A DNA stretch of 62,842 nt, filler included, from Theionarchaea archaeon (GTDB lineage: Archaea; Methanobacteriota_B; Thermococci; Methanofastidiosales; SZ-28-30): the NCBI GenBank assembly GCA_018992565.1. It is 5 parts of 5 records of this genome, joined end to end, with 100 filler letters (N's around TTAATTAATTAA, not from the genome) between each part and the next. Parts side by side here need not be neighbours in the genome. Positions count along the whole stretch, not along the records: positions 29,930 to 44,588 come from JACVGW010000069.1; 4 more parts are not named here. One strand, given 5' to 3'. Both the position numbers and the translations under genes were made by a program. Every line of letters starts with the position of its first letter. The first letter of the stretch is position 1. Below are positions 30,994-44,688 of the stretch, in pieces. The notes under the pieces were generated by a model that was given only the letters and a program-made list of their open reading frames with translations, made no database searches and was not told where the DNA came from.

Positions 30994-31921
30994 GGATGGC
31001 CACCGGCAGCAATTCCACTATCCCCCCATACACATGAATTGTCCCAGTCACAGTGAGGGACTGACCTTCATGAAATGTGTTACTATCCACCTTTAATTGA
31101 GACTGCATGGTAGAGAATATTGGGACGAGAATGAAACCTGTAGCGTCTTCGATTACTATGAATATGTGTCCTTTGGATGCAGTAACTGATTTTATGATGC
31201 CCGATACTGTTACGGGGTAATCTATGGGCATTTTTCTTGCCAAGTTGATGGAATCTACTGATAGGGGTTCCCAGGTATGATAGAGTACCAAGACCTTCGT
31301 CCCATCCTGAATGCCAAACCCTTTGACACTCCCTGGAGCAAGCGGATGAGAGGAGACAAATATGCGGTGATCTGCATACAGGAGAAATGTGCTGGTACTG
31401 CTCCCTGTTGAAATAGTACATATCCTCCCTTCCATAGGTATTAGAGGAATCTCGAGGATTCTTTCAGGAAACAGCTGCCCATCCCCTGTAGTTCCCAGTA
31501 CTGCATAATCTCCATCTGGCAGTTGTGTTCTGAACCTACCATGTTCTGTGTACAGTACAGAGTTGCAGCATCTTCCGTACAGGACCTTTGAGATGCTGTA
31601 TTCCTCGGGAATAACCTCCAGATTTCCCTTGTATACTGATACTACTCCTTCTGCGTAAAGCAAGTCTCCCACGGATATATCACCTGCAAAATTGAAGAGA
31701 GGCACCAGGATAGGAGAGCCATCATAAAGAGTAACAAGAGTGTGCCCCTTGGTCTGATATGTTTCCAAGATGATACCCTCACAAGCAACGTATGAGCCGG
31801 GTTCTGTTATAGAAGACACTGGTCCTAGCGAAGGATGTGTCAGATGTGTTGCAGCAAATAGCCCTGCAATACCGCATAAGGCACAGACTACAGCCCCCAT
31901 GGTAGTGCCCTTATTTCTCAT
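30986..31921 (-). CDS. Membrane-anchored multi-OB-fold nucleic-acid-binding protein
   Basis: N-terminal hydrophobic anchor; OB repeats 'GDLLYAEGVVSVYKGNLEV' and 'GQSLTVTGTIHVYGGIVEL'; overlaps the permease start. Confidence 0.7.
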   Translation of the reverse strand: MRNKGTTMGAVVCALCGIAGLFAATHLTHPSLGPVSSITEPGSYVACEGIILETYQTKGHTLVTLYDGSPILVPLFNFAGDISVGDLLYAEGVVSVYKGNLEVIPEEYSISKVLYGRCCNSVLYTEHGRFRTQLPDGDYAVLGTTGDGQLFPERILEIPLIPMEGRICTISTGSSTSTFLLYADHRIFVSSHPLAPGSVKGFGIQDGTKVLVLYHTWEPLSVDSINLARKMPIDYPVTVSGIIKSVTASKGHIFIVIEDATGFILVPIFSTMQSQLKVDSNTFHEGQSLTVTGTIHVYGGIVELLPVAIHG

Positions 31922-32096
31922 GGAGGTTCCTCCTGCAGGTAGCTATAACTTTTTGGTGTGCACATCAGAGTGTTGACTGATAGATTCTGATACCAAGAGA
32001 GGAAAGTTTTTTAGGGGCTGGCAGGTGCTATACTATAATGAACTCTTCACTGCTCTTGAGGTAACACGTGAAGGGTTCTCGCAAGGAAGTGGTATC

Positions 32097-32792
32097 ATGA
32101 ATCGCTCATTGCTTATTCTGGCTGTGGCTGGGATGGTGCTCACTGCACCCATCATTCAGGCTGATACTGAGTATGTATGGACCGAGAGAGGGTGCAATGT
32201 AGTGTATACTGTTGGAGAAAAGATTACTGTCTATTTTATGACAGTCAAGGATGCAGAATTTGAATTGTGGGCCTATGATGCTCTGATGAAGGAGACACTG
32301 TTGGCATCAGGAGTAGGTGACGGAAGTACCTTTTTCGTTGAAGTGACTGCAGCCCTGCCTTCAGGACTTCTCACTCTTGTACTCAAAATGCCCTGCAACG
32401 AGGAATGTGAGACCTGTCTCTGTGACTTTGGCCAGTGTACCCTGCATATACAAGAGGGGGAATGCAAAGCCCACTGCTCTAATGGCAAACAGGACTGTGG
32501 AGAATATGGTGTGGACTGCGGGGGAGGGTGTCCTTTCACAGATACTGACGGCGATGGAGTTGAAGATTGTGTAGATTTATGCCCTGATAGCAGGTGTAGA
32601 AACGTGGATGCGTCAGGATGTGAATTGGATACAGATGGTGATACAGTCCCTGACTGTGAGGACCAGTGCCCTCAGAAAAAGGGGGATACCTCCAGTGGTG
32701 GATGTCCTGCCAGGTCCAATGCTCTCCTGTACATTGCAGGAGGCTCTATGGTTGTGGTAGCAGGTATCATACTATGGAACCTCAAGAAGTAG
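32097..32792 (+). CDS. Secreted Cys-rich surface protein with thrombospondin type-3-like Ca-binding repeats and C-terminal anchor
   Basis: Signal peptide; DTDGDGVEDCVDLCP and DTDGDTVPDCEDQCP; TM helix followed by KK. Confidence 0.75.
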   Translation: MNRSLLILAVAGMVLTAPIIQADTEYVWTERGCNVVYTVGEKITVYFMTVKDAEFELWAYDALMKETLLASGVGDGSTFFVEVTAALPSGLLTLVLKMPCNEECETCLCDFGQCTLHIQEGECKAHCSNGKQDCGEYGVDCGGGCPFTDTDGDGVEDCVDLCPDSRCRNVDASGCELDTDGDTVPDCEDQCPQKKGDTSSGGCPARSNALLYIAGGSMVVVAGIILWNLKK

Positions 32793-32797
32793 TACAT

Positions 32798-33214
32798 CTA
32801 TTCTGGGCAGCATTCTCCTTTGGGGATATCGTTCCCATGAGGACATACCCGGGGATGATTCAGAAATGTACACAGTTTTGCAGCCACTTCTTTGGAGATT
32901 GAGTGTTCACAAGAACAGGCAATTTCCTCAATGTCCCTCCTGTCAATGTGGATCACGTTATTGAGAAGTACCTCCATGAGCCTGTGAGCTCTTACCAGAT
33001 GCTTTGCTTTAGTCTCCCCCTTTTCAGTCAGAATGATCCCTTTTTGTCTCCTGTATGTGACAAATCCACTCTTCTCCAGTTTCCTCAACATCTCTACAGC
33101 GCTGGGGGGCTGCACATCCAGCAACTGGGCAATGTCCTTGATCCGGCAAATAGTGTCCCCATTTTCCCTGAGGCACCAGAGGGCTTCCAGATACTCTTCT
33201 CCACTTTCACTCAT
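32798..33214 (-). CDS. DtxR/MntR family metal-dependent repressor
   Basis: EEYLEAL, PPSAVEML, HRLME, CEH, CPHGNDIP. Confidence 0.92.
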   Translation of the reverse strand: MSESGEEYLEALWCLRENGDTICRIKDIAQLLDVQPPSAVEMLRKLEKSGFVTYRRQKGIILTEKGETKAKHLVRAHRLMEVLLNNVIHIDRRDIEEIACSCEHSISKEVAAKLCTFLNHPRVCPHGNDIPKGECCPE

Positions 33215-35112
33215 ACCAATACACCTCCTGCTCTCACCAGCAGGGCCAGAATAAAAGCCAACCCAGTGGTTAGAACGACAATATACGTGGTCTTCCGAGT
33301 TCCGAATTCCTTCAGGAGAACACCAATGGCGGCTACACAGGGAACATAGAACATGACAAATACCGTAAACGTCAGAATCTGGACTCTGGTCAGAACATTG
33401 AGCACCTGAGATGTACCTAGCGCCTGGATCAACATAACCAGGGAGAGTTCCTTTTTCAGGACACCAAATATGAGGGTCACTCCCACCGCAGCAGGAAGCC
33501 CCAGCACTAGTGTTACAGGTCTGAGAGTCTGGTTAATGGTGAGATCAACTCCAAAATAGTTCAAGAGACTGAGCACAGCACTTCCTCCAATGAGAAGAGG
33601 CCATGCAATGTATATAAACTCTCTCACTCGAAGCCAGGTTTTCAGCAGCACACTCTTTGCGGAAGGAATATGGTACGTCGGGATCTCCAGTATGAGTCCT
33701 GGTGTAATTTCAGGCATCAATCGTGATAGGATGAGACCCAGTGCCACTATTACGACTATGTTAAAGACATAAAGACCCAGAGCAGCATTGGAAGATATGA
33801 AAAAGGCCACCAACCCCAAGATTACGGTGGTCCGAGCAGCACAGGGTATGAGAGTGGAAATAGTGGCTGTAATGAATCGATCCCGTTCAGATTCCAGGAT
33901 TCGAGTGGCCATTATTGCAGGAACAGTACATCCAAATCCCAGAATAAGAGGTATTATAGCCTTCCCATGGAGCCCAATTCTATGCAGGAAGGTATCCATG
34001 AGAAAAGCTATCCGGGGTAAATATCCAACATCTTCCAGGATGGCAAGTCCAATCAAGAAAGGGACTAGATAAGGCAGGACAATGCCTACGCCTCCAGAAA
34101 ACCCTTCCAATATGCCTTCAGCCATTTTCAGTGATAGCCCACTCAGATAGACCGATAGCAGAGGTACAATTTGTTCAAATGCATCCAAAACGTAAGATTC
34201 CAGCACGCGGCCGATCCCAAAGACAACGTTGAAGAAGATGTAGAGAATAGCACCAAGAGCAACATATCCCGCGTACTTGTGCATCAGCACATCATCCAGC
34301 CGGTCTCTCAGAGAAATCTCAGGTTCTGTGACTTCTCCTACTCTTTCAAAGATGTTCATGGCCTGGGCATGCCTTTCTGAGGAAATTACTACATCTGCGG
34401 GTCTCCCGTGGGACTTCTCAAGTTCTTCCTGAAATTTTCGTACCTTTTTCAGGACTTCAGGATCCTCAATAGACTCTATGAAATATTGGTCATTTTCAAG
34501 GAGTTTTAATGTCAGGAGCCTGCAGGGCACTTTCAAGATTTCACATTCTTTTTCTAGCTCTTTTTCCAGGTTCGTTACAATTTGCTCGATATCCTTGCTG
34601 AATTCGATTTTTCGAGATGTTTTTCCTGCTTTTGCAGTAGCCACGGCGGCCTGGAATACTTCTCTGATTCCCTTTCCTTTAACTGCAACAGCAGTCACTA
34701 CGGGCATTCCCAAAATCCTTTCCAGGTGCTCTGTATCAATATGTATTCCCTTTCGTTCAGCTTCATCCATCATATTCAAAACGAGCACCAGAGGGACATC
34801 TAGCTCAGCGATCTGAATGGTCAATTCCAGACTTCGGGATAGCCGGGAGGCATCCACCACGTTCACCACTACATCTGCCTCATTCCGTAGCAGGTATTTA
34901 CGAGCTTCAAGTTCTGCCAGATCAAAAGAGGTCAGAGAGTAGGTACCAGGAAGGTCTACCACATCCAGTATCTCACCTGAAAACTGGACACGGGATTCAT
35001 TATACTTCACCGTTTTTCCAGGAAAGTTTGAGGTTACTGTCTTGTATCCGGCAATCTGGTTGAACAGCGTGCTCTTCCCGGAATTGGGCTGTCCTGCCAT
35101 GGCCACGATCAT
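33211..35112 (-). CDS. feoB: Ferrous iron transporter B
   Basis: GQPNSGKST, NFPGKTV, DLPGTYSL, NMMD, GFGCTVPA, PCAAR, YVPCVA. Confidence 0.96.
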   Translation of the reverse strand: MIVAMAGQPNSGKSTLFNQIAGYKTVTSNFPGKTVKYNESRVQFSGEILDVVDLPGTYSLTSFDLAELEARKYLLRNEADVVVNVVDASRLSRSLELTIQIAELDVPLVLVLNMMDEAERKGIHIDTEHLERILGMPVVTAVAVKGKGIREVFQAAVATAKAGKTSRKIEFSKDIEQIVTNLEKELEKECEILKVPCRLLTLKLLENDQYFIESIEDPEVLKKVRKFQEELEKSHGRPADVVISSERHAQAMNIFERVGEVTEPEISLRDRLDDVLMHKYAGYVALGAILYIFFNVVFGIGRVLESYVLDAFEQIVPLLSVYLSGLSLKMAEGILEGFSGGVGIVLPYLVPFLIGLAILEDVGYLPRIAFLMDTFLHRIGLHGKAIIPLILGFGCTVPAIMATRILESERDRFITATISTLIPCAARTTVILGLVAFFISSNAALGLYVFNIVVIVALGLILSRLMPEITPGLILEIPTYHIPSAKSVLLKTWLRVREFIYIAWPLLIGGSAVLSLLNYFGVDLTINQTLRPVTLVLGLPAAVGVTLIFGVLKKELSLVMLIQALGTSQVLNVLTRVQILTFTVFVMFYVPCVAAIGVLLKEFGTRKTTYIVVLTTGLAFILALLVRAGGVLV

Positions 35113-35348
35113 GAGATAACCTCAACCATCACCTTCATGGCTACCCCTCTCCCCAGAGCAACTTCATTGGAGTTGACCTGCACTCTGACAGGACCTCTCC
35201 ACAGACTGGAGCTTGCCATGGTCACAACTTGTCCCGGGAGTATGCCCAGCTCACACAATTTCTGTCTGAGACCCCAGCCTCCATGCACTTCAACTACCTT
35301 TGCCTTCTGGCCGGGTTTCAAATTGTCCAATGTCTGAATTAGGCTCAC
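35109..35348 (-). CDS. feoA: Ferrous iron transport protein A
   Basis: LCELGILPG..GPV..VALGRGVA; overlaps feoB start. Confidence 0.92.
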   Translation of the reverse strand: MSLIQTLDNLKPGQKAKVVEVHGGWGLRQKLCELGILPGQVVTMASSSLWRGPVRVQVNSNEVALGRGVAMKVMVEVIS

Positions 35349-35354
35349 CTAATT
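35337..35354. promoter_or_regulatory. Palindromic DtxR/SirR-type operator AATTAGG-CTCA-CCTAATT
   Basis: Perfect 7-bp inverted repeat over the feoA start, just downstream of TATA (TTTATAA, 35372-35378, minus); TTAGG-N4-CCTAA resembles DtxR-family boxes. Confidence 0.75.
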
Positions 35355-35601
35355 TCTTGATGATGATGAGCTTATAAACCTTTGGGTTGTACCAATGATT
35401 TTGCGAGGGATTTGTGCATGTATCATCTCCTGAGAGTACACGGGTCAGTGTTCCATTGATAGGATGAATTTCATTCGCTCGCTCAGATTGCTACAGGGTT
35501 AAATTCCGGAAGAATGTGTGATAATTCTCTGCATATCAACATTGACAATTCAAAACCTATTTATTGGGATAATGCTACTATGTGAAAGAAATGCATAAGG
35601 A

Positions 35602-36717
35602 ATGACATATGAGGAACAATTCGGAGAACACACTATGGATTTAACAGAATCAGAAAAGAGACTCCTCACGCTCATTGGGGAGAATCCCTCACATACCAGA
35701 TGGGAATTGCTGCAAGAGCTCAATTACAAGCGGCCCACTACGCTGAGCAGCAAAATGAGCGAACTGAAAAAAGCAGGATACATCAGGGGGCCATACTATC
35801 ACATCAATCTGAATGCTGTATGTGAGACTCCAGTATACAGTATACTGGCTGAAATTCGATTCAGCCCCAGCCACTACGATGTGGTTTTCAAGAGCATTCT
35901 CTGTATTGACTGTTGGGAGTGGATTTTCCCCACGATACAGGGAGAAACACTCTTTGCATTTTTCAGGTCCTGCGACTGCTCCCATCTCCACCGGTTGTTG
36001 AATGTGTTGAGAAATGAGGGGGTTATTGAGTACCGCTCATATACCTCGCAGAACAGGTGGTTCGTACAGAACCCAGACTTCTCAGGGAGTGTTTTTCCGC
36101 AGACGTCTGATCTCTTTCGTTCCGTTGATATTGAGCTTTGCTACCCTGACAAAACCCATAATACTGCCTGGCAGTTTATTGACCTGAAGGTGATGCAGTA
36201 TCTCCAGGTAAGGACCACCAGTATTGCAGAAATACAAAAACTGGAAAAAAGTCTGCATGGAAGGTTCTGGAGGCGCCATCAGATCAAGCACAGCATTAAG
36301 AAGATTACTGAAGCAGGAATTGCTGAAAGAAAACATTATAATATTTCTCCCTTTCCTCGAGGCGAAGACTATGCGTTTCTGTTGCTCATTGAAGGTGACA
36401 GCCTGGACGTTCTGCAGTTCATTTCAAGTTTTGGCAGAGGCTGCAGGCTGTACAAGGCCTTCACAATGAGCGGTGGGACAGGGTTCTTGTGGTGCTGGTG
36501 CAGTCCACAGGTAGGTCCCACCCTGATGAAGAGGCTTGATAATCTCCGTCCACGAATTGAAGCCCGCTGCCTTCCACTAAAATCGAGAGGACACGGTGAC
36601 ACACTCAAGAAGTCATTCAACGAAGAATATTTCGACCTTGAAAAGCAGAAGTGGACTTTTCACTTCAAGAAATGCAAAGAAGAAATAGAAAAGGTAATGG
36701 AGAGAAAGAACGAATAG
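35602..36717 (+). CDS. Tandem Lrp/AsnC-like winged-helix regulator
   Basis: N-terminal HTH 'LTESEKRLL..TTLSSKMSELKKAGYI' and a second HTH-like unit 'IDLKVMQYL..IKKITEAGIA'; start may be ATG 35635. Confidence 0.6.
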   Translation: MTYEEQFGEHTMDLTESEKRLLTLIGENPSHTRWELLQELNYKRPTTLSSKMSELKKAGYIRGPYYHINLNAVCETPVYSILAEIRFSPSHYDVVFKSILCIDCWEWIFPTIQGETLFAFFRSCDCSHLHRLLNVLRNEGVIEYRSYTSQNRWFVQNPDFSGSVFPQTSDLFRSVDIELCYPDKTHNTAWQFIDLKVMQYLQVRTTSIAEIQKLEKSLHGRFWRRHQIKHSIKKITEAGIAERKHYNISPFPRGEDYAFLLLIEGDSLDVLQFISSFGRGCRLYKAFTMSGGTGFLWCWCSPQVGPTLMKRLDNLRPRIEARCLPLKSRGHGDTLKKSFNEEYFDLEKQKWTFHFKKCKEEIEKVMERKNE

Positions 36718-36724
36718 GTGCTTT

Positions 36725-36823
36725 TCAGCAGGGAGTATCTTTATCATCACCTTCAACTCCCCCACAGGGAGTTATTCTCCAGATGATATCTGGAAGATTC
36801 AGTTTCTGCATTGTATTGTACAT
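36725..36823 (-). CDS. Small peptide, 32 aa: MYNTMQKLNLPDIIWRITPCGGVEGDDKDTPC
   Basis: RBS AGGTGA 6 nt before ATG, TTAAGTA/TATA-like boxes upstream, wholly intergenic; below ORF-track cutoff. Confidence 0.65.
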   Translation of the reverse strand: MYNTMQKLNLPDIIWRITPCGGVEGDDKDTPC

Positions 36824-37019
36824 ATTACATCACCTGGTGAGTGGATTGAGAAATTACTTAAGAATCATCCCGCTTTTATTATATATCCTAAGGATTCTCA
36901 AAATTTAAGATTGCCATACCTCAGGAATGAGGCCTTCTCAGTTCTCAAGCTTTCTTGGATGCAGAGCGGACGAGCTCAAGATCACTCGTGCTGTACAGTG
37001 GAAGAGACCTCCCTCACGG

Positions 37020-38381
37020 TCATTCCTCTGGAGGGGTGATGAGATCCATTTCAAATCTGACAAGGGCATTGTACGCCCCTTTTATGTCGTCTGAGGTCCC
37101 TGTCTGCAAGGCTTCTCTATATTTTTCCTCCAGGAATTCCCTCTTCTGTTTTATGTCAATTTCCCTGAGATTTCGCTTCACTTTCCTGATTTCCGCAAGC
37201 TCATCAAGTTGCTCGTAAAGACTGAGGCTTTTCTCCCAGAGTCCCCTGGCTCTCGTCAGCTCTTCCTTTCGAGCATGACACAGTCCTTTGTTATAAAGTG
37301 AACCCGCAATCCTGAATGTGTTCTTTCCTGCCAATGTCAGTGCTCTCTCGAATAATGCCAGAGCATCATCAATGTCATCATTCATGTAAGAACAGGAACC
37401 CAGATTATTCAGGACGTCAGACAACAGGGGAGTGTCCTGTATGTCTTCAGCAGTTCTTTCACATCTCGTGTAGTACTGCTCTGCAACCATGAAGCTGGAT
37501 CTCTTGTATGAGACGTTTCCCAATTCCTTCAAGGCGTATGCCTTTCCTCTGCTGTCTCCAGTTTCTCCACAGATTCCTTCCATGCGGAGGAATGCAGCTT
37601 CCGCCCTGGCCAGGTCACCCTTCAATTCGTAGACACACCCCAACGTATAGAGTGCCCAGGTAATCTGGGAATTATCCAACCCATCAGGCAGGACAGCATC
37701 CAAGGCATGAAACAGCGCTGTATTATCCTCCTCTCGTTCCCGAGTTACCTTCTCCAATACTCTCTTGAGAGCAGTATCCCATTCTTCAGAAGTGCGCAGC
37801 TTTGAAGCGGCATCCGCTCTTGTCATGTAAAAGATTTCTTCTCCCTTTTTGGAGAGTCTGTATTGACTCTGATCCACATGGCTCTTTTTCTCATATTCTA
37901 TGTACCCTTTCATTCTCAGGTGCTTGAGGTTCCGGTAAATGCTTGCCCTGGATACACCTTTTATACTACCAAGATAGGTGTTGAAATGCTCTTCGACGTC
38001 TCCCGTTGTGACAGACTGCCTTTTCCCCACCACATGAATAATGTGGACCATGATCTCCCAGGGTTTTACGTCTAATTCTTCCATTGCCTTGACAATCCTC
38101 TTTCCGATGTCTTTCTTGAGGGGTTCTGAGGCTTGCTGGGATCTCCTCACATCTCCAAAAAGATTCAGCCCTCGAGAGGTGATAGTGTAGAAGGGAAGAA
38201 TGTCCTTCCTTTCAACTTTCAGGAGATATTCCTGTGCAAGAAGCTTGAGCATGATAGACTGCGTATTACTGCCTCCGATTCTCTTGGCCTGTTCTTCCGT
38301 GATTTTTCTCCCGTGACAACGGGCGAAGTCTAGGATCTCGACTGTGAGTTCCACCTCCTTTGTGCCATTGAGCAAAACCAT
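37020..38381 (-). CDS. Tandem winged-HTH plus TPR regulator
   Basis: wHTH 'VSRASIYRNLKHLRMKGYI..YRLSKKG'; TPRs 'ALYTLGCVYELKGDLARAE', 'VLNNLGSCSY', 'SLYNKGLCHA'. Confidence 0.8.
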   Translation of the reverse strand: MVLLNGTKEVELTVEILDFARCHGRKITEEQAKRIGGSNTQSIMLKLLAQEYLLKVERKDILPFYTITSRGLNLFGDVRRSQQASEPLKKDIGKRIVKAMEELDVKPWEIMVHIIHVVGKRQSVTTGDVEEHFNTYLGSIKGVSRASIYRNLKHLRMKGYIEYEKKSHVDQSQYRLSKKGEEIFYMTRADAASKLRTSEEWDTALKRVLEKVTREREEDNTALFHALDAVLPDGLDNSQITWALYTLGCVYELKGDLARAEAAFLRMEGICGETGDSRGKAYALKELGNVSYKRSSFMVAEQYYTRCERTAEDIQDTPLLSDVLNNLGSCSYMNDDIDDALALFERALTLAGKNTFRIAGSLYNKGLCHARKEELTRARGLWEKSLSLYEQLDELAEIRKVKRNLREIDIKQKREFLEEKYREALQTGTSDDIKGAYNALVRFEMDLITPPEE

Positions 38382-38595
38382 GTCATCTTTAGGGAATTCT
38401 CGTTAATATGCATTTTGGAGAGCTGCACCCTATATACAGAAGCCTTTCCTTCCCTGTTGCTGGGGTGTTTCTTCCAATGAGTCACCCTGCTGTGAAAAGC
38501 GGTGTCTCATGGAAGAGTTCAAGAATCTACCTCATAGCCATATTATCTTCTTCCATCATTTCAGGCAGATTCTCGTAGGTGGATTATACTTACTC

Positions 38596-39012
38596 TTACT
38601 CGAAATCTCTTTTATCCATGAAGAAGTCAACAATATCCATAGAGAAATCCAGCGGAAATTCATTCTGTGACAAGAGCTTCAACATGCCTTCTTGGAGATT
38701 CTCAGTGCTTTCCGAATTCACTGTGTGGGCTATTCCTGTTAGGAGGATGTAAAAAGCTCGAACCACCTTGGGTGCCATAACACTCCTGGGTCCTGACCGT
38801 GGTGAAGACCCTCCTGCATCTCTAACTGAGGGTCCTTCCAGGTCCCACCACACATTCTTAGGTTCAAGGTTGCCATTTTTCCGTTCCTTGAGAACCTCTG
38901 CAAAGGTTTCCCATATCAAATGGAGATATGGGACTTCTTCCGGGTATTCTCTTTCTATGAATTCCTCTGCATACTGCCTCACTTTGTCCACAATCTCCTC
39001 TTCTATGTTCAT
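38596..39012 (-). CDS. Hypothetical helical protein, 138 aa
   Basis: Clean ORF with GAGGA RBS; divergent from the CHAT gene. Confidence 0.65.
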   Translation of the reverse strand: MNIEEEIVDKVRQYAEEFIEREYPEEVPYLHLIWETFAEVLKERKNGNLEPKNVWWDLEGPSVRDAGGSSPRSGPRSVMAPKVVRAFYILLTGIAHTVNSESTENLQEGMLKLLSQNEFPLDFSMDIVDFFMDKRDFE

Positions 39013-39213
39013 GAAGATTCCTCATTCCTCTATTTTTGAGTCTATCAATTCTTTATAAGCCTTGGTGATACGGTTCTCAGGGTTCGTGAGGGTTACTCAA
39101 AATCCTTTCTATCTCACATTTTGTGGAACATTGCTCCAGAGTCCATGCCAAACCTATAAGAATGTGAACCTGCAAGGCAATGTGAGACGCTAGCGATTGC
39201 ATAGGAGGTTACC

Positions 39214-42078
39214 ATGATTACCCATCCGAAAATTCTCTATTTGTTCTCTGGACCTCTGGTGACCTTGGATGGCATCCCTCTTGACGTTCTAGACTTGAAG
39301 ACAGAGCGCGATGTCATTGTGAGGGAGATTTCTGCCTGCCAGAGAACATGCTCACTTCGTATTGGATATGCAACTATAGAGGAACTTGCCAGAGGCATTG
39401 AGGATGGATTCAATATTCTGCATATCAGTACTCATGGCAAGGAGGAATTTCTCTTGTTTGAGGATGGGAAAGGTGGAAGTCAGCCCGTGACAGGCGAATA
39501 CCTCAGGAGAATGATAGGCACGGGAGGTGCGGTTGAATTGGCTGTTATCAGCGCCTGCCATAGTGAAAAAGTTGGCTCACTGCTGGCTGATGCAGGTGTT
39601 CCACATGTTGTGGCAGTCAAGCGTGATTTTCCAGTAGTAGATCATGCAGCTATCGTCTTTACAGCCCATTTCCTCCGCAATCTTTTCCGCGGAAATACCG
39701 TAAAAATTGCCTTTGAGATGGCTTCTTTACTAGTAGAAGGGAACCCGGATCTGGTGAAGATGAGGCACTATCTCAAGGTTGCAGCCTATAGAAAGAGAGA
39801 GAAATTCATACCCGAAGAAGAGAAGTTTGTTCTCCTCCCTCGAGATGGTTCACATGAGAGTCCCCTCCTCTCTCAAGATGTGGCGCGCGGTACTGTGACA
39901 ATTGAAGAGCCGCTGCCGTCACCCTCGAATCTCCCCACGAAACCACAATTCTTTACAGGTCGATCAGGAGAGATGCATGCTGTTATCAGTGAGCTCTTGC
40001 AGAGCAGGCTGATCACCTTGACAGGAGTGGGCGGCATCGGAAAAACAACACTGGCCATCGAGGTAGCACGATGGACCTGTTGGCGGAATATCTTTCCCCA
40101 GGGAGTATATTACGTGGACCTCAGACAGACTGACACTGCAGATGGGGTTCTTGATCTACTCTGTGCAGCTCTTGAGGTGAGAGTGTCTCGGCTTCAGAAT
40201 GTCATTACACACCTTGAAAACCGTCGCTGCTTGCTGGTCCTGGATAATGCAGAGGATATCCTCTGGTACGATGAAGACGGGATGCAATATATTGCTAGCA
40301 CCATTTTGAGGACCACTTCCCATACGAAGTTGTTGATAACAAGCCAGAGGCCAGTGGGAGGAAATCTGTACGAGCCTGAACGTGTGTGCAGAATTGGTCC
40401 ACTGGAACGCAGGTATGCTACGCAGCTCTTTTGTGCCACAACGAAGAGGAGAGTATTACAGAATGAATATGGATCACCTCTCTTCGATGACCTCGTTGAC
40501 CAGTTAGGAGGACACCCCTTATCACTTGTACTAACAGCTCGTCAGCTTGCCCCCGGGGTGACTCTTGAAGATATACATGAGAGAATTGAGGTACACAAAG
40601 CCAAAGCAATCAAGACAAAGCATATCACGGGGAGGACTCTGGATCATGGGGAAAGCCTGGTAACAGCCCTGGCCTCAACATATCATGTCCTGTCAGATAG
40701 AGCACAGATACTTTTTCAGGTACTCTCCCTCCTTCCAGCAGGGGTCAAGAAGGATGTATTTGAAGACATCTGGGGCAGTCCAGTCTGGGAATATGTGCAA
40801 GAATTAAATGATGCCTCTCTGGTAGAGGTGAGAACCGGGAGAGTGACACTGTTGCCACCGGTGAGGTTGTTCGCATTGACTGTTCTCACTGATGAGGTCA
40901 GGAGTTGTTATCGTCCCAGAATTGTGAAAGTCATGGGGACATTCACCAGAATACTGTACAAGGGTCACACTACGGGGAGCTCGGGAGACTATCGGGCTCT
41001 TTTTACTGTAGAAGAGCCAAACCTTCGAGCTGTCGTTGACTTCCTCAGTGAATCATCTCAAAGAAGAGAGAACACGTCATCTCCTGGGCTCTTTGGGGCT
41101 GAACTCATTTACCTGTACATTTTCCACAATCGATGGAAAGAAGCACAGACTGTTGGTTCCAGGATTCTATCCCATCTAAAAAGATGTGAGGATCCAGAGG
41201 GTGAGGCGCATGTGCTCATAGCACTGGGTGTCCTTGCTTTTCGAACAGGGAATTTAGAAGAAGCCAAGACGCAGTATGAAAAAGCTCTCCAAAACTATCA
41301 GGATACCCATGCACGAATGGGTGTGGCAAATGCCTTCTGGACCTTGGGTGATCTTCTTTTTAGAACAGGAGATTTCCAGGGAGCTCAAGAGAGATTTGAA
41401 AAAGCCTTATGTATCTACCGTGAGATTGAAGTGGACCTCGGCGAAGCAAATGCCCTTCTGCGCCTTGGACTCCTTGCTTTTCTCACAGGACATCCTGGAG
41501 AAGCTCAGGGACAGGTTGGAAAAGCTCTGGAGATCTATCAAGGTATTCACGTGGAGATTGGTGAAGCAAATGCTCTCCGGATACTGGGAGATTTTGCCAT
41601 GTGGACAGGTGATAGTGTTACAGCTCATACCCAGTATCGGAAAGCTCTGAAAATCTACACACGTAACAGCGTGAAAGATGGTGAAGCGCGCACCCTCGTC
41701 CATCTGGCCCGATGGGCTGCTCTGGCAGGCGAGAGGGAGGGTGTAGAGAGATATCTCGATGATGCGTTCGCAATATATGAGGAAAGAGAAGATCTTGACG
41801 GCCAGGCTCATGCACACATGGTGAAAGCGTTGCTCTTTCTTGCTGTCCACAACTTGACCCGAGCAAGGCGTCAGCTTGAATATTGTTCATCTATCCAGGA
41901 AAAAACGTGCCAGCATTCTGAAGCAGCACAGTGGCTCATTACATACGCAGGGTATTTTATGCCACACAGCTGCAAAGAAGAAGCATCACTTTGTCTGGAA
42001 TATGCAGCGAGATTTGCATCAACAGCACGGAATTTCCATCTGCTCGACAGAACTATGGAACTGCAAGTAGTACTATGA
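39214..42078 (+). CDS. CHAT (caspase-like) protease - STAND/NB-ARC NTPase - TPR protein
   Basis: CHAT dyad LHISTHG and ISACHS; FTGR; Walker A GVGGIGKT; Walker B LLVLDNAE; GHPLSL; several TPRs; RBS GGAGG. Confidence 0.88.
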   Translation: MITHPKILYLFSGPLVTLDGIPLDVLDLKTERDVIVREISACQRTCSLRIGYATIEELARGIEDGFNILHISTHGKEEFLLFEDGKGGSQPVTGEYLRRMIGTGGAVELAVISACHSEKVGSLLADAGVPHVVAVKRDFPVVDHAAIVFTAHFLRNLFRGNTVKIAFEMASLLVEGNPDLVKMRHYLKVAAYRKREKFIPEEEKFVLLPRDGSHESPLLSQDVARGTVTIEEPLPSPSNLPTKPQFFTGRSGEMHAVISELLQSRLITLTGVGGIGKTTLAIEVARWTCWRNIFPQGVYYVDLRQTDTADGVLDLLCAALEVRVSRLQNVITHLENRRCLLVLDNAEDILWYDEDGMQYIASTILRTTSHTKLLITSQRPVGGNLYEPERVCRIGPLERRYATQLFCATTKRRVLQNEYGSPLFDDLVDQLGGHPLSLVLTARQLAPGVTLEDIHERIEVHKAKAIKTKHITGRTLDHGESLVTALASTYHVLSDRAQILFQVLSLLPAGVKKDVFEDIWGSPVWEYVQELNDASLVEVRTGRVTLLPPVRLFALTVLTDEVRSCYRPRIVKVMGTFTRILYKGHTTGSSGDYRALFTVEEPNLRAVVDFLSESSQRRENTSSPGLFGAELIYLYIFHNRWKEAQTVGSRILSHLKRCEDPEGEAHVLIALGVLAFRTGNLEEAKTQYEKALQNYQDTHARMGVANAFWTLGDLLFRTGDFQGAQERFEKALCIYREIEVDLGEANALLRLGLLAFLTGHPGEAQGQVGKALEIYQGIHVEIGEANALRILGDFAMWTGDSVTAHTQYRKALKIYTRNSVKDGEARTLVHLARWAALAGEREGVERYLDDAFAIYEEREDLDGQAHAHMVKALLFLAVHNLTRARRQLEYCSSIQEKTCQHSEAAQWLITYAGYFMPHSCKEEASLCLEYAARFASTARNFHLLDRTMELQVVL

Positions 42079-42108
42079 TGCTCCCCCAGATTATCCGGTA
42101 TGCAGAAG

Positions 42109-42984
42109 TCATGACAGCTCAGGAAGCTTCTCTATGAATTCTCTGGCATCAGTAACAAGCTGCTGTGCACTATCACTCCTGTCGTTCTTGCCGAGTAACT
42201 CCGCAGCCTCTTCAAGATACCCTAGCGTCAACTCAGCTTGGGCAGGAGTATTGTCTTCCGCTTGCTTCCAGAGGGTGTTGGCATGCGTCCAGAGTCCATT
42301 TGCTCTCTTTCTCAGGGCATTTGCCCTATCCCGAAATTGTCTCTTGAATTCCTCTGAAATGCTTTTTTCGCTCTTCATGGTTCCTGCACTTTCTTGCAGG
42401 CATTTGGTCCTATGAGCCAGGAGGACATCATACACATGACCTATCATCCCATCTGGATGGGTTTCGCCCTCAAGGGTCCATTCATTCTTGGTTATTGCTG
42501 TTATCTCCAATCCGCATGCCTCTTTGACCAAATCAGCTGAATTCTGAATCATGGGCCTGGAAGTGGACGAGTTGTAACCCGAAAGGCTGGCCAGTCTTTC
42601 TGCAGGTGCTGTGCAACTTTGATACCCGTTACACAAATATTCCCAGTGAGTTCCCAGCATGTTAAAGTGAGTGGGAATTATATCGGGCTGCTGCCACCCC
42701 TCACATCGATAGGAGTCAATGAGGAACCTTGAAAGAGATGCTGTCATTTCCACAATAGCTTCTACAAGCTCTTTTTCTTTCTCCACCTGTACAGAAATGA
42801 GAATCACCATTTCATCTCTCATTTCATCGGTGCCGCTCACGTTGAAAAGCAGTGCGTCACCGGTCTTCAACCCCGCTGTTACCGCATCTGCCAAAGTCTT
42901 GTCAGCAGTCCTCCTGATCTGCTGTTCCATGCTGATGATTCTCTTCTTCTCGAATTCAATACTGCTTTCTCCTTGTCTTTCCAT
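42109..42984 (-). CDS. Hypothetical helical protein, 291 aa
   Basis: Long ORF with protein-like composition and no recognised motif. Confidence 0.6.
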   Translation of the reverse strand: MERQGESSIEFEKKRIISMEQQIRRTADKTLADAVTAGLKTGDALLFNVSGTDEMRDEMVILISVQVEKEKELVEAIVEMTASLSRFLIDSYRCEGWQQPDIIPTHFNMLGTHWEYLCNGYQSCTAPAERLASLSGYNSSTSRPMIQNSADLVKEACGLEITAITKNEWTLEGETHPDGMIGHVYDVLLAHRTKCLQESAGTMKSEKSISEEFKRQFRDRANALRKRANGLWTHANTLWKQAEDNTPAQAELTLGYLEEAAELLGKNDRSDSAQQLVTDAREFIEKLPELS

Positions 42985-43142
42985 GGGCTCGCCTCATCTG
43001 AGAATTCGTCTGGTATTCTTGACATACTTATGAATGAGTACCAACTTAAAAATCTTGGGTTACATGTTGTATCCCTTATCCCCTTCAAGAGAATTACTGA
43101 AAGTAAACTTGCAGAACTCTCTGATAAACCTATGACGGACTC

Positions 43143-43160
43143 AAAAAAAGAAGAAAAAAT
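43143..43160 (-). terminator. U-rich terminator after the radical SAM gene
   Basis: TTTTTTCTTCTTTTTTT about 10 nt after the stop on the minus strand. Confidence 0.65.
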
Positions 43161-43170
43161 AGGGGTTCGG

Positions 43171-44217
43171 TCAGTCAGCCACGAGGATTTCCTCTGTTCT
43201 TTGCCAGCACCGGGGGTCTTCTCCAAGGAAATCACCCATTGCAGAAGCAGCACCTCTACAGCCTCCGCAGGCAAACTTGTATTTACATGTGCCACATTTC
43301 CCTTCAAGTGCTGATCTGGAATGGCGAAAGTTCTCAAGAAGTTCATTTTCAAACCAGATGTTCTCCAGGTTTTCTTGTGTGGCATCAGCTACAAAGATGG
43401 GGAAATAGGGACAGAGCTGGACAATCCCCTGGGGGTTGATGTAGAGCAGTGTAAAGGCAATTGAGCATCCAGTTACTGCTATCCCCTGCATAAGATCTGA
43501 ATCAGTTTCTATTTCTCTATGTCTCACTTCATTCATAAACATTTCAGGAAAGGGATCACTGAATCCGACTCTCATATTCAATTCTTTACCTGTATCCCAT
43601 ATTCTCTCGCACAGCCTGCGATATTGATCTGCATCCACCAGCTTATGTGAAGCTCGTCCCACAGGGACAAGGTATCGGAAATTGAATATTTTAATGCCAA
43701 TGCTGTCTATAAATCGCATGAGAGCTTCTGGTTCATCTTCTCCTTGATGGAAATATGTCATCCGCACAGCCACAGTGGCATCCTTTTCCACGAGGAGGTT
43801 TAATGCCTGGACAGTCTTTTCAAAGGATCCCCTGCCGCGGACAGAGTCATGTATTTGCGGAGTTGCACCTTCCATGCTGACATTGAACCCTCGAACTGTT
43901 TCCAATAGCCAATCAACGTTTTCAGGAGTTATCAAGGTTGCATTGGTGAGCAATTCAACGTGATTTCCAGGGTGGTTTTCTTTGATGTAGCAGAAAATAT
44001 CCCTGAGGTCTGGTCTCATGAGAGGTTCTCCGCCGGCTATTGCCAGAGCAGCATGTGGTGAAATAGCATGTATCTGATCCAGTAATGAAATAACCTGCTG
44101 GAAGGTGAGATCTGCTGTCGTTTTGTCCAATACGCTTGCACGACAATGCTTACATGCCAGGTTGCACTGGCTTGTAATATCCATCTGTACAATTCTGGGT
44201 GGGTGTTGCCATTTCAT
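43171..44217 (-). CDS. Radical SAM/SPASM enzyme, putative peptide maturase
   Basis: CNLACKHC, GGEPL, LLTNA, HDSVRG.GSF; SPASM 'GCSIA..INPQG.VQLCP..KCGTC..ACGGCR..EDPRC'; ATG 44217 behind GAGGT. Confidence 0.9.
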   Translation of the reverse strand: MKWQHPPRIVQMDITSQCNLACKHCRASVLDKTTADLTFQQVISLLDQIHAISPHAALAIAGGEPLMRPDLRDIFCYIKENHPGNHVELLTNATLITPENVDWLLETVRGFNVSMEGATPQIHDSVRGRGSFEKTVQALNLLVEKDATVAVRMTYFHQGEDEPEALMRFIDSIGIKIFNFRYLVPVGRASHKLVDADQYRRLCERIWDTGKELNMRVGFSDPFPEMFMNEVRHREIETDSDLMQGIAVTGCSIAFTLLYINPQGIVQLCPYFPIFVADATQENLENIWFENELLENFRHSRSALEGKCGTCKYKFACGGCRGAASAMGDFLGEDPRCWQRTEEILVAD

Positions 44218-44242
44218 GTTATTACCTCTTCTTGTGATCGAT

Positions 44243-44269
44243 AAAAAAATGGGGGCAAAAGCCCCCCAT
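44243..44269 (-). terminator. GC hairpin plus U tract between peptide and radical SAM genes
   Basis: Minus strand ATGGGGGGCTTTTGCCCCCATTTTTTT. Confidence 0.75.
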
Positions 44270-44274
44270 CCCAA

Positions 44275-44523
44275 TTACTTCGGTAGGATGCAGATATCGC
44301 ATCCGCCGCACGGTCCCTGCAAACTAGGATAGAATGGCCGCAGAGGATGTAGTGACTTCAGTTTCTGAAGTCTGTCCTCAACATCCATCTTCTTTGGTTC
44401 TCCTATGACAAGGTCACATCCTCCGCATGGGCCTTGAGCTGCATATACGGGGATTTTGTTCTGTTTCGCATGTTCTAAGGCGTCTATCAACTCTGATACA
44501 GAATAGTGTTTCTCTGTTTCCAC
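44275..44523 (-). CDS. Putative RiPP precursor, 82 aa, with two leader-core units containing QGPCGGCD
   Basis: GTG start behind GGAAGTGA; immediately upstream of the rSAM/SPASM gene on the same strand; duplicated Cys motif. Confidence 0.8.
   Translation of the reverse strand: METEKHYSVSELIDALEHAKQNKIPVYAAQGPCGGCDLVIGEPKKMDVEDRLQKLKSLHPLRPFYPSLQGPCGGCDICILPK
44296..44436 (-). repeat. Protein-level duplicate QGPCGGCD (44413-44436 and 44296-44319)
   Basis: CAA GGC CCA TGC GGA GGA TGT GAC versus CAG GGA CCG TGC GGC GGA TGC GAT. Confidence 0.9.
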
Positions 44524-44544
44524 TTTTGATCACTTCCTTTTTGG

Positions 44545-44587
44545 CTGCTATGAGGTCGCTCTTGTTCCACTATGCAACCTCATGCAG
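44545..44587 (-). promoter_or_regulatory. Stem-loop upstream of the precursor gene (probable 5' UTR)
   Basis: CUGC-AUGAGGUUGC ... GCGACCUCAU-A-GCAG: 14 bp with one G-U pair, one bulge and a 14-nt loop. Confidence 0.55.
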
Positions 44588-44588
44588 G

Positions 44589-44688
44589 NNNNNNNNNNNN
44601 NNNNNNNNNNNNNNNNNNNNNNNNNNNNNNNNTTAATTAATTAANNNNNNNNNNNNNNNNNNNNNNNNNNNNNNNNNNNNNNNNNNNN
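44589..44688. other. Artificial contig linker
   Basis: N-TTAATTAATTAA-N. Confidence 0.97.

What the first reader, a model, noticed from the sequence alone, without database searches (positions are those of the whole stretch)
43171..44587. Candidate new archaeal RiPP system: radical SAM/SPASM maturase with a two-core QGPCGGCD precursor
Seen: an 82-aa gene lies directly upstream of a rSAM/SPASM gene on the same strand. It consists of two units, helical leader...PVY-AAQGPCGGCDLVIGEPK and helical leader...PFYPSLQGPCGGCDICILPK, and a U tract after the rSAM gene closes the two-gene unit. Known: SPASM enzymes cross-link peptides, and the ranthipeptide enzyme PapB links Cys to Asp in CX3D motifs; CGGCD is a CX3D motif. 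Inference: a multi-core thioether (ranthi- or sactipeptide-like) RiPP in an archaeon, where such pathways are little characterised. No RRE, protease or transporter is visible, but the contig ends 65 nt upstream.
Basis: partly seen in the sequence, partly recalled or inferred. Interest (0 to 1): 0.9.

Follow-up and report, generated by a model that had tools for sequence, protein, structure and literature searches.

The report
Repeat-peptide and radical SAM enzyme pair
A small gene encoding a peptide with two copies of the motif GPCGGCD sits next to a radical SAM enzyme gene, and the same pair recurs in distant anaerobic archaea and bacteria, so it is probably an uncharacterised family of enzyme-modified peptides.

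Summary
An 82-aa gene (44275-44523, minus strand) with two GPCGGCD units lies directly upstream of a radical SAM/SPASM gene (43171-44217). A hairpin plus T7 separates the two genes, T-runs follow the enzyme gene, and the contig ends 65 nt upstream.

The pair is conserved. All 7 real genome loci found with the peptide have an orthologous enzyme (53-86% identity) directly downstream. Of 21 metagenome loci found with the enzyme, 20 have such a peptide upstream, and the last has only 83 nt of upstream sequence. No other gene is shared across these loci.

Hosts include Theionarchaea and Methanofastidiosia, Desulfoluna, Bacillota and Polyangia, so the system is not specific to archaea. Peptides carry 1, 2, 3 or 11 units.

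The enzyme clade has 100/100 support and is separate from a true AhbD. It falls below every NCBIfam cut-off and has no RRE. Among solved structures it is closest to the thioether-forming maturases CteB and SkfB.

The best reading is a stand-alone precursor/maturase cassette, most likely making Cys-derived thioethers. The chemistry is untested. One natural variant (HGGCD) lacks the Cys of the proposed CX3D pair. No paper containing the motif was found. I rate it a new variant of a known kind, of moderate to high interest.

The parts
44524..44588 (-). 5' region of the peptide gene up to the contig end. It holds an SD-like GGAAGTGAT just before the GTG start and an imperfect inverted repeat (ATGAGGTTGC ... 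GCGACCTCAT).
   Evidence: Read directly. The equivalent stretch of L001 keeps both features. Function was not tested.
44275..44523 (-). Precursor peptide gene, 82 aa, made of two leader-like segment plus core units.
   Evidence: ORF. 22 homologues and alignment A1. Synonymous to non-synonymous codon differences 22:6 against L001. No Pfam or NCBIfam family.
44413..44433 (-). Core 1, GPCGGCD (residues 31-37).
   Evidence: Invariant in 23 of 23 sequences of A1.
44296..44316 (-). Core 2, GPCGGCD (residues 70-76), followed by a third Cys (C78).
   Evidence: D76 is invariant; C72, G73 and C75 are kept in at least 90% of A1.
44218..44274 (-). Spacer between the two genes. It holds a G+C hairpin (44251-44266) followed by T7, then a GAGGT Shine-Dalgarno-like site before the ATG at 44217. 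It looks like an attenuator or partial terminator.
   Evidence: Terminator-like site reported; folds. A similar hairpin follows the peptide gene in L001, L004 and L012, but not in L011. L007 folds well but has no G+C hairpin with a T-run (6 loci were examined).
43171..44217 (-). Radical SAM/SPASM enzyme, 348 aa. CX3CX2C at C18/C22/C25 (44143-44166). Seven SPASM Cys from C251 to C337 (43207-43467). No N-terminal RRE-like domain.
   Evidence: Pfam. Invariant Cys in A2 and A3. AF2 model with pLDDT 89.5. Clade supported 100/100.
43140..43170 (-). T-rich tract (T6 and T7) directly after the enzyme's stop codon. It is a likely archaeal-type terminator closing the two-gene unit.
   Evidence: Read directly. 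That oligo-T tracts terminate archaeal transcription is established knowledge, recalled and not tested here.

Best explanation
This is a stand-alone two-gene cassette for a ribosomally made, enzyme-modified peptide. The 82-aa product is the substrate. Each conserved unit of about 15 residues, P-x-x-x-A-x-G-P-C-G-G-C-D-hydrophobic, is recognised directly by the compact, RRE-less radical SAM/SPASM enzyme. The enzyme cleaves SAM reductively, abstracts a hydrogen within the unit and joins a Cys sulfur to a carbon of the peptide. The most likely target is the beta-carbon of the invariant Asp, giving a ranthionine-type thioether and a loss of 2 Da per link. One or two links would form per unit, in every unit of a precursor that may hold 1, 2, 3 or 11 units. 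The hairpin plus T-run between the genes would let the peptide mRNA exceed the enzyme mRNA.

Shown: the genes, the motif, the enzyme's cluster-binding residues, the conserved linkage and the separate clade. Inferred: that the peptide is the substrate, the thioether chemistry, the Asp acceptor, and the attenuator role. The biological role of the product is unknown. No exporter or protease travels with the cassette, so the situation resembles SCIFF-type cassettes (recalled), and an intracellular role is possible.
For: Linkage from the peptide side:
- A scan of one genome for each of 185,579 species gave 10 loci. 7 are real peptides, and 7 of 7 have an orthologous rSAM/SPASM gene directly downstream on the same strand, at 53-86% identity to the window's enzyme.
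- In 4 of 4 whole genomes the peptide occurs only at that place.

Linkage from the enzyme side:
- 21 metagenome loci hold an orthologue.
- 17 have a CGGCD peptide upstream on the same strand, 2 have one upstream on the opposite strand, and 1 has an HGGCD peptide. The last locus has only 83 nt of upstream sequence.
- L019-L021 repeat the L002 peptide, so they are not independent.

Other evidence:
- Only these two genes are shared. The enzyme is in 28 of 28 loci, and the next most widespread neighbour family is in 6, all Desulfoluna-like.
- Other AhbD-like paralogues in the same genomes have no such peptide.
- In a careful ML tree, 26 cassette enzymes form one clade (100/100) apart from a true AhbD, 7 paralogues and 6 nearest non-cassette relatives. 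Its subclades follow precursor architecture: single-core, two-unit, three-core.
- The variable unit number (1: 11 strings, 2: 20, 3: 15, 11: 1, of 47 strings) and variable leaders, set against near-invariant units, fit a multi-core substrate.
- The enzyme has 3 + 7 invariant Cys. This is the same 3-Cys AuxI plus 4-Cys AuxII pattern reported for the archaeal thioether enzyme CrpC (PMC13692751, section 9 passage).
- The closest solved proteins are the thioether-forming maturases. By profile: CteB 2e-18 and SkfB 4.2e-18, with the next hit at 7e-12. By fold: SkfB, SuiB, CteB and anSME at TMq 0.69-0.78.
- Chemical precedent exists. PapB links Cys to Asp/Glu in Cys-X3-Asp/Glu motifs and accepts Cys-Xn-Asp with n = 0-6 (PMC9413430, abstract). 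CrpC modifies PCAGD and CAVD motifs (PMC13692751, section 12).
Against: - No experiment or mass data exist, so the chemistry rests on analogy.
- By HMM the enzyme scores higher against TIGR04053 (174.9 bits), AhbD (167.6) and NirJ2 (154.5) than against PapB (64), QhpD (62.8) or AlbA (62.6). It is below every cut-off.
- AhbD, NirJ, MftC and PapB were not among the solved-structure hits, so 'closest to CteB/SkfB' holds only among the solved proteins that matched.
- L029 carries HGGCD. The Cys of the CX3D pair is therefore dispensable in at least one lineage, and the adjacent Cys-Asp pair may be the real site.
- Two Cys per unit with one Asp is not explained by a single Cys-Asp link.
- There is no RRE, protease or transporter.
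- In one search, positions +1 to +4 of the unit were fixed by the search pattern, and some strings are the same peptide with different N-terminal extents.
Confidence: 0.6

Rival explanations
1. The peptide is the substrate but the chemistry is not a thioether. The enzyme could oxidise a Cys (formylglycine-type, as anSME does on a short motif without an RRE), build a heterocycle from Cys (as reported for SbtM), or epimerise or otherwise alter residues of the unit.
For: anSME is among the best fold matches and gives the best target coverage (4k38_A, TMq 0.77, TMt 0.73). It has about the same size, and that it lacks an RRE is recalled. The SbtM family model scores 105.6 bits, higher than PapB at 64. 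The HGGCD variant shows that a single Cys next to Asp can suffice.
Against: All of these family scores are far below their cut-offs. The invariant Asp directly after the Cys, and the PCAGD/CAVD precedent, fit an acceptor role. The profile search ranks CteB and SkfB eight orders of magnitude above anSME.
Confidence: 0.2
2. The peptide is a scaffold for a small redox cofactor or metal-binding molecule that is cut out after modification, as in PQQ or mycofactocin. It would not be a peptide natural product.
For: The enzyme is of the compact AhbD/NirJ/MftC-like type, and one database record even names a homologue MftC. No exporter or immunity gene is present. All named hosts are lineages I recall as anaerobes.
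Against: MftC scores 103.8 bits against a cut-off of 265. Known cofactor pathways need further enzymes and a peptidase next to the pair (recalled), and none is conserved here. Up to 11 units per precursor is unusual for a cofactor scaffold.
Confidence: 0.08
3. The small protein is not a substrate. It is a Cys-rich metal- or Fe-S-binding partner, such as an electron donor or chaperone of the enzyme, and its CxxC pairs simply bind metal.
For: Two CxxC pairs in the archaeal form could make a Cys4 site. Database annotations give no function.
Against: The unit number varies: 1, 2, 3 and 11. One form has a single Cys. The invariant Asp and the Pro/Ala/Gly flanks are not explained. Leaders are unrelated between subgroups, helical-looking in some and Lys/Arg-rich in others.
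Confidence: 0.08
4. The enzyme is a tetrapyrrole enzyme (AhbC/D or NirJ type) and the adjacent small ORF is incidental.
For: The best NCBIfam scores include AhbD (167.6), NirJ2 (154.5) and NirJ (131.2). One source names a homologue 'AdoMet-dependent heme synthase'.
Against: All of these scores are below the cut-offs of 500 or more. Desulfoluna butyratoxydans has a true AhbD (558.6 bits) elsewhere, while its cassette enzyme scores 178.8. The cassette clade is separate, 100/100. The peptide is present in 20 of 20 assessable enzyme-side loci.
Confidence: 0.02

Closest known systems
Ranthipeptide system PapA/PapB (freyrasin)
   Same: A radical SAM/SPASM enzyme acts on a precursor with repeated short Cys...Asp motifs. 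[quoted passage not shown] CGGCD contains both an n = 3 and an n = 0 pair.
   Different: The PapB family model scores only 64 bits against a cut-off of 340. Here there are two Cys per unit and an invariant G-P before them. The enzyme belongs to a separate clade nearer to AhbD-like proteins.
CrpC/CrpA of Methanococcus voltae (TIGR04463)
   Same: An archaeal rSAM/SPASM enzyme with a 3-Cys AuxI and 4-Cys AuxII installs thioethers in a repeat-rich Cys protein. The modified motifs include PCAGD and CAVD (PMC13692751, sections 8, 9, 12).
   Different: CrpC has an N-terminal RRE and acts on a large protein with 17-residue repeats. TIGR04463 is not among the 25 best of the 83 families matched by the window's enzyme. 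That study screened only proteins of 100 aa or more, so an 82-aa peptide would have been missed.
SCIFF peptide with CteB-type maturase; SkfB
   Same: A two-gene (peptide plus rSAM/SPASM or twitch enzyme) logic with thioether formation. CteB (5wgg/5why) and SkfB (6efn) are the closest solved proteins by profile and by fold.
   Different: The matches are weak: about 20% identity, E 2e-18 with the profile. CteB's chain is about 100 residues longer at the N-terminus, and the match starts at chain residue 101. The peptide matches no NCBIfam model. That SCIFF cassettes lack a transporter is recalled, not tested.
AhbD / NirJ heme-type radical SAM/SPASM enzymes
   Same: Similar length, no RRE, and the highest HMM scores after TIGR04053.
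   Different: Scores are about one third of the cut-offs. A true AhbD coexists in Desulfoluna. The cassette clade is separate. The enzyme is always linked to a peptide.
Anaerobic sulfatase-maturating enzyme (anSME)
   Same: A compact SPASM enzyme that acts on a short Cys-containing motif without an RRE (recalled). It is a good fold match, TMq 0.72-0.77.
   Different: Its substrates are large sulfatases with a different motif (recalled). The profile E-value is only 4.5e-10.

Membership tests
Radical SAM superfamily (PF04055) | [quoted passage not shown] | tested here: met
   PF04055 scores 82 bits against a cut-off of 29.5. C18, C22 and C25 are invariant in 26 of 26 sequences.
SPASM subgroup (PF13186) | C-terminal seven-Cys motif for two auxiliary clusters. 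| tested here: met
   PF13186 scores 27.4 bits against a cut-off of 21.5. C251, C269, C308, C311, C317, C320 and C337 are invariant. Cluster content itself was not measured.
RiPP precursor/maturase pair (general) | A small gene with variable leader and conserved core(s), genetically linked to the modifying enzyme across lineages. | tested here: met
   7 of 7 peptide-side loci and 20 of 20 assessable enzyme-side loci keep the pair. The peptide occurs only at the cassette in 4 of 4 genomes.
RiPP (general) | The peptide is actually modified by the enzyme. | not testable with these tools
   Needs co-expression or in vitro assay with mass spectrometry.
Ranthipeptide / sactipeptide | Thioether from Cys sulfur to a non-alpha carbon (ranthi) or an alpha carbon (sacti) of an acceptor residue. 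| not testable with these tools
   Only analogy is available: a CX3D and an adjacent CD pair in each unit, and precedents from the papers read.
PapB family (NF047865) | Score at or above the curated cut-off of 340 bits. | tested here: not met
   64 bits.
Thioether maturases with a fused RRE (CteB, CrpC type) | N-terminal RiPP recognition element of about 90-100 residues before the rSAM core. | tested here: not met
   The cluster motif starts at residue 18 of 348. The AF2 model shows only the rSAM barrel and the SPASM region. Matches to CteB and SkfB begin at chain residues 101-112. No separate small RRE gene is conserved.
Heme b synthase AhbD (TIGR04545) | Score at or above 500 bits, and the role of the genome's AhbD. 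| tested here: not met
   167.6 bits. In Desulfoluna a different gene scores 558.6 while the cassette enzyme scores 178.8. Separate clade.
NirJ / NirJ1 / NirJ2 (TIGR04051, 04054, 04055) | Score at or above 500-650 bits. | tested here: not met
   131.2, 102.8 and 154.5 bits.
Mycofactocin maturase MftC (TIGR03962) | Score at or above 265 bits. | tested here: not met
   103.8 bits. The recalled further features of the system, a precursor ending in Val-Tyr and an MftB partner, do not fit either: the peptide ends in PK and no partner gene is conserved.
PqqE (TIGR02109), QhpD (TIGR03906), AlbA (NF012164), SbtM (TIGR04082), ACGX system (TIGR04340) | Score at or above each curated cut-off. | tested here: not met
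   65.3 of 381; 62.8 of 453; 62.6 of 850; 105.6 of 350; 103.1 of 400.
CrpC family (TIGR04463) | Match to the family model. | tested here: not met
   Not among the 25 best of 83 matched families, so it scores below the 57.7 bits of rank 25. Its cut-off was not shown.

The most novel reading that the evidence does not exclude
The enzyme is a leader-independent, motif-directed radical SAM maturase. It reads a self-contained unit of about 15 residues (P-x3-A-x-G-P-C-G-G-C-D-hydrophobic) wherever and however often it occurs. It installs a cross-link pattern not yet described: for example a seven-membered ring between the adjacent Cys and Asp, plus a second link from the other Cys. The product would be a rigid thiol/carboxylate knot that works inside the cell of strict anaerobes as a metal-binding or redox peptide rather than as a secreted antibiotic.
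Probability: 0.2. Interest if true: 0.8.

Novelty: new variant of a known kind. Interest (0 to 1): 0.6.

Why it matters
Radical SAM/SPASM enzymes that cross-link peptides are a source of new chemistry and of tools for peptide cyclisation. This family has four useful properties:

- **An invariant, very short target motif.**
- **An enzyme without a recognition domain.**
- **Natural precursors with 1 to 11 units.**
- **Cultured hosts.** Two Desulfoluna isolates carry the cassette, so a direct test is cheap.

The family also adds a second candidate thioether system to archaea, after CrpC. The archaeal hosts are uncultured sediment lineages (Theionarchaea/Methanofastidiosia), where almost nothing is known about peptide natural products. 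Databases call the enzyme 'radical SAM protein', 'MftC' or 'heme synthase', so a defined family would correct annotations.

Tried and rejected
- **Co-fold.** The enzyme (alignment A3), the peptide (A1), three 4Fe-4S clusters and SAM were submitted. The queue was full five times and the job ran. The result was no verdict: scores 0.27, 0.38 and 0.01 against a mark of 0.32, and the controls were not run. It is not used as evidence either way.
- **ESM Atlas look-up of the peptide.** No usable hit.
- **Earlier findings of this scan, by sequence.** Nothing.
- **Whole-genome search of the window's own assembly.** No genome is held.
- **Sequencing runs.** 20 DNA holders from 7 studies and no RNA holder listed. 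No reads were laid.
- **Representative search with the enzyme profile.** It was of little use for counting, because the whole clade collapses into one 50% cluster (P0024, 518.7 bits). The next hits score 347 bits (a fused double enzyme) and 302 bits.
- **First two trees.** They contained a wrongly chosen ORF for AhbD (seen; again took the wrong ORF). They are superseded.
- **L008-L010.** These are chance pattern matches inside unrelated frames and were dropped.
- **L032.** 35% identity over 51 residues; dropped.
- **P0023.** E = 4.1; left out of alignment A1.
- **Literature.** 'GPCGGCD' gave 0 papers. 'CGGCD' with 'radical SAM' gave 0. 'PCGGC' gave 16 papers, and none of the 15 listed looks relevant by title or abstract start. 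'Desulfoluna' with 'radical SAM' gave 0. 'Theionarchaea' with 'radical SAM' gave 2; I saw only the listing, and neither looks relevant by title or abstract start.
- **Limits of the literature check.** Figures and supplementary tables of RiPP atlases are not searched by these tools. I did not open the supplements of PMC13692751. The family could therefore be listed there unnamed.
Full report
**What is in the window**

The window is a chain of contigs joined by N spacers. The finding lies on the piece 29930-44588. On the minus strand an 82-aa ORF (44275-44523, GTG start) is followed by a radical SAM/SPASM ORF.

The peptide has two G-P-C-G-G-C-D motifs, at residues 31-37 and 70-76.

The ORF listing starts the enzyme at a TTG (44274). 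Every orthologue begins at the equivalent of the ATG at 44217 (MKWQ...), and a GAGGT lies before that ATG. I therefore take 43171-44217, 348 aa.

The 57-nt spacer holds a six-pair G+C hairpin followed by T7. A T6 and a T7 lie within the 31 nt after the enzyme's stop codon. The N spacer starts 65 nt upstream of the peptide start.

**The small ORF is a real gene**

A search of 5.8 billion proteins gave 23 proteins with E of 10 or less among 25 candidates, 22 of them with E of 2.7e-4 or less. In the alignment of the window's peptide with these 22, G31-P-C-G-G-C-D37, P25, L38 and D76 are invariant.

Codon differences are mainly synonymous. Between the window and L001 there are 22 synonymous and 6 non-synonymous differences in 83 codons. 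Between two Desulfoluna-type genes the counts are 24 and 8.

Neither Pfam nor NCBIfam has a model for the peptide.

**Linkage, from the peptide side**

A scan of one genome for each of 185,579 species used the pattern [APT][AG]xGPCGGCD. It returned 10 loci. Three of them (L008-L010) are chance matches inside unrelated frames.

The other seven come from:
- a Theionarchaea MAG (L001, 91% identical peptide, syntenic with the window);
- a Desulfolunaceae MAG and two cultured Desulfoluna species;
- a Bacillota MAG;
- a Polyangia MAG;
- a Thermodesulfobacteriota MAG.

In 7 of 7 the next gene downstream on the same strand is a radical SAM protein of 346-380 aa. These are 52.7-86.5% identical to the window's enzyme.

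In four of these genomes the peptide profile matches nowhere except at the cassette. Among 60 genomes searched as relatives of the Theionarchaea MAG, only that MAG itself has a match. The cassette is therefore rare and patchy. The scan pattern would miss the single-core forms described below, so these numbers are lower bounds.

**Linkage, from the enzyme side**

A metagenome scan with the enzyme alignment gave 22 loci. One of them (L032) is spurious. The other 21 break down as follows:
- 17 have a CGGCD peptide gene directly upstream on the same strand.
- 2 near-identical loci (L013, L014) have a one-core peptide upstream on the opposite strand.
- 1 (L029) has a peptide with HGGCD.
- 1 (L031) has only 83 nt of upstream sequence.

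That makes 20 of 20 assessable loci. L019-L021 repeat the L002 peptide, so they are not independent.

Clustering all neighbours in 28 loci shows the enzyme in 28. The peptide falls into one BLAST cluster in 19; the short single-core forms fell below the 60-aa ORF limit or were not linked by BLAST. Nothing else occurs in more than 6 loci, and those 6 are all Desulfoluna-like. There is no conserved protease, transporter, RRE protein or immunity gene.

**Precursor architectures**

There are four types:
1. Two leader-plus-core units: the window, L001, L011, L012, L015.
2. One leader followed by three cores 8-9 residues apart: Desulfoluna, Polyangia and others.
3. One core after a Lys/Arg-rich leader: L022-L029. 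L023 has two such genes in tandem.
4. One 283-aa protein with 11 cores: L004, Bacillota.

I compared 107 cores from 47 non-identical strings. Some of these strings are the same peptide with different N-terminal extents. Positions +1 to +4 were fixed by the search pattern. The flanks are strongly conserved:

| Position | Residue | Count of 107 |
|---|---|---|
| -8 | Pro | 91 |
| -4 | Ala | 76 |
| -2 | Gly | 102 |
| -1 | Pro | 96 |
| 0 | Cys | 106 (the exception is His) |
| +5 | Leu/Val/Ile | 106 |

The conserved element is thus a unit of about 15 residues rather than the leader, which differs completely between subgroups.

**The enzyme**

Pfam finds Radical_SAM and SPASM. In 26 orthologues, C18/C22/C25 and seven C-terminal Cys are invariant. 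That gives three ligands for one auxiliary cluster and four for the other, the pattern described for CrpC (PMC13692751, section 9 passage).

The cluster motif starts at residue 18. The AF2 model (pLDDT 89.5) has no extra N-terminal domain, so there is no fused RRE.

Against NCBIfam the protein is below every cut-off:

| Family | Score (bits) | Cut-off (bits) |
|---|---|---|
| TIGR04053 | 174.9 | 395 |
| AhbD | 167.6 | 500 |
| NirJ2 | 154.5 | 500 |
| MftC | 103.8 | 265 |
| PapB | 64 | 340 |

Desulfoluna butyratoxydans has a true AhbD (558.6 bits) at another place, while its cassette enzyme scores 178.8. The other AhbD-like paralogues fetched from the four genomes have no CGGCD peptide nearby.

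I built a careful maximum-likelihood tree of 40 proteins. It puts the 26 cassette enzymes in one clade with 100/100 support. That clade is apart from the true AhbD, seven paralogues and the six nearest non-cassette representatives. Its subclades follow the precursor types.

Database names are generic or wrong: 'radical SAM protein', 'putative mycofactocin radical SAM maturase MftC', 'AdoMet-dependent heme synthase'. 84 clusters at 90% identity have E of 1e-80 or less, from Theionarchaea, Methanofastidiosia, Syntrophus, Nealsonbacteria, Thermodesulfobacteriota and Desulfoluna.

**What it most likely does**

Among solved proteins the profile is closest to the two thioether-forming peptide maturases: CteB (5wgg/5why, E 2e-18) and SkfB (6efn, 4.2e-18). 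The next hit is at 7e-12. Foldseek ranks SkfB, SuiB, CteB and anSME first, at TMq 0.69-0.78. This comparison covers only the solved proteins that matched. No AhbD, NirJ, MftC or PapB appears among the hits.

Chemical precedent exists. PapB joins Cys to Asp/Glu in Cys-X3-Asp/Glu motifs and accepts spacers of 0 to 6 residues (PMC9413430, abstract). The archaeal CrpC modifies PCAGD and CAVD motifs (PMC13692751, section 12).

CGGCD offers a Cys three residues before the Asp and a Cys directly next to it. I therefore favour Cys-to-Asp thioether formation in every unit. The natural HGGCD variant shows that the adjacent Cys-Asp pair, not the CX3D pair, is the part that is never lost. The role of the second Cys is open. 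It could form a second link or ligate the open site of the auxiliary cluster.

The hairpin plus T-run between the genes recurs in L001, L004 and L012. It is absent in L011, and L007 has no G+C hairpin with a T-run (six loci examined). A partial terminator there would favour peptide over enzyme transcripts. This is inference.

**Comparison with what is known, and novelty**

The system works like a ranthi- or sactipeptide cassette and resembles SCIFF in being a bare two-gene unit (the latter point is recalled). It is not a member of any defined family that I could test; see the membership table.

No paper holding the motif was found. Nothing relevant came up for Desulfoluna (0 papers) or for Theionarchaea (2 papers, judged from the listing only).

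The 2026 CrpC study screened archaeal proteins of 100 aa or more, which would have excluded this peptide. Supplementary tables of RiPP atlases could not be searched, so an unnamed listing elsewhere cannot be excluded.

**Verdict**

The interpretation as a candidate RiPP system is well supported by comparative genomics. The specific chemistry is plausible but untested. The system is not restricted to archaea. I rate it a new variant of a known kind, with interest 0.6.

Noticed in passing
window 39214-42078 (+): A 954-aa protein with CHAT, NB-ARC and TPR domains, a STAND-type NTPase with a caspase-like domain. It is syntenic in the Theionarchaea MAG at 73% identity. It is not part of the cassette in other lineages.
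   Followed up: partly
window 42109-42984 (-): A 291-aa ORF directly downstream of the cassette with no Pfam family. It is conserved only in L001, at 68% identity.
   Followed up: partly
window 44524-44588 (-) and L001 7936-8000: An imperfect inverted repeat (10-nt arms) is conserved in the 5' region of the peptide gene in both archaeal loci. It could be a regulatory or mRNA-stabilising hairpin.
   Followed up: no
window 44290-44292 (residue C78 of the peptide): The second core of the archaeal-type peptides carries a third Cys two residues after the Asp (CGGCD-x-C). It appears in 16 of 107 cores at position +6. It could be an extra cross-link site.
   Followed up: no
L004 6670-7521: A Bacillota MAG encodes a 283-aa precursor with 11 cores. 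Seven units are near-identical 20-residue tandem repeats.
   Followed up: partly
L029 2800-2949: A single-core precursor in which the first Cys is His (HGGCD), next to a 52%-identical enzyme.
   Followed up: partly
L023 about 2500-2977: Two single-core precursor genes lie in tandem upstream of one enzyme gene.
   Followed up: no
L001 6505-7593: In the Theionarchaea MAG, the gene upstream of the peptide is a FemAB_like/GNAT acyltransferase. In the window this position lies beyond the contig end. It is not conserved in the bacterial loci.
   Followed up: partly
genome G001 (the Theionarchaea MAG holding L001): 47 matches to the AhbD-type rSAM/SPASM model in a 3-Mb genome, several in tandem groups on contigs C3, C7 and C10. 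This is a large expansion of SPASM-type enzymes whose substrates are unknown.
   Followed up: no
P0026 (663 aa): A fused protein with two complete rSAM/SPASM modules is the nearest relative outside the cassette clade, at 347 bits.
   Followed up: no
window 44589-44688 and four other places: The window is a concatenation of contigs. They are joined by N runs, and at this junction also by a TTAATTAATTAA linker. Genes on either side of a junction are not neighbours.
   Followed up: yes
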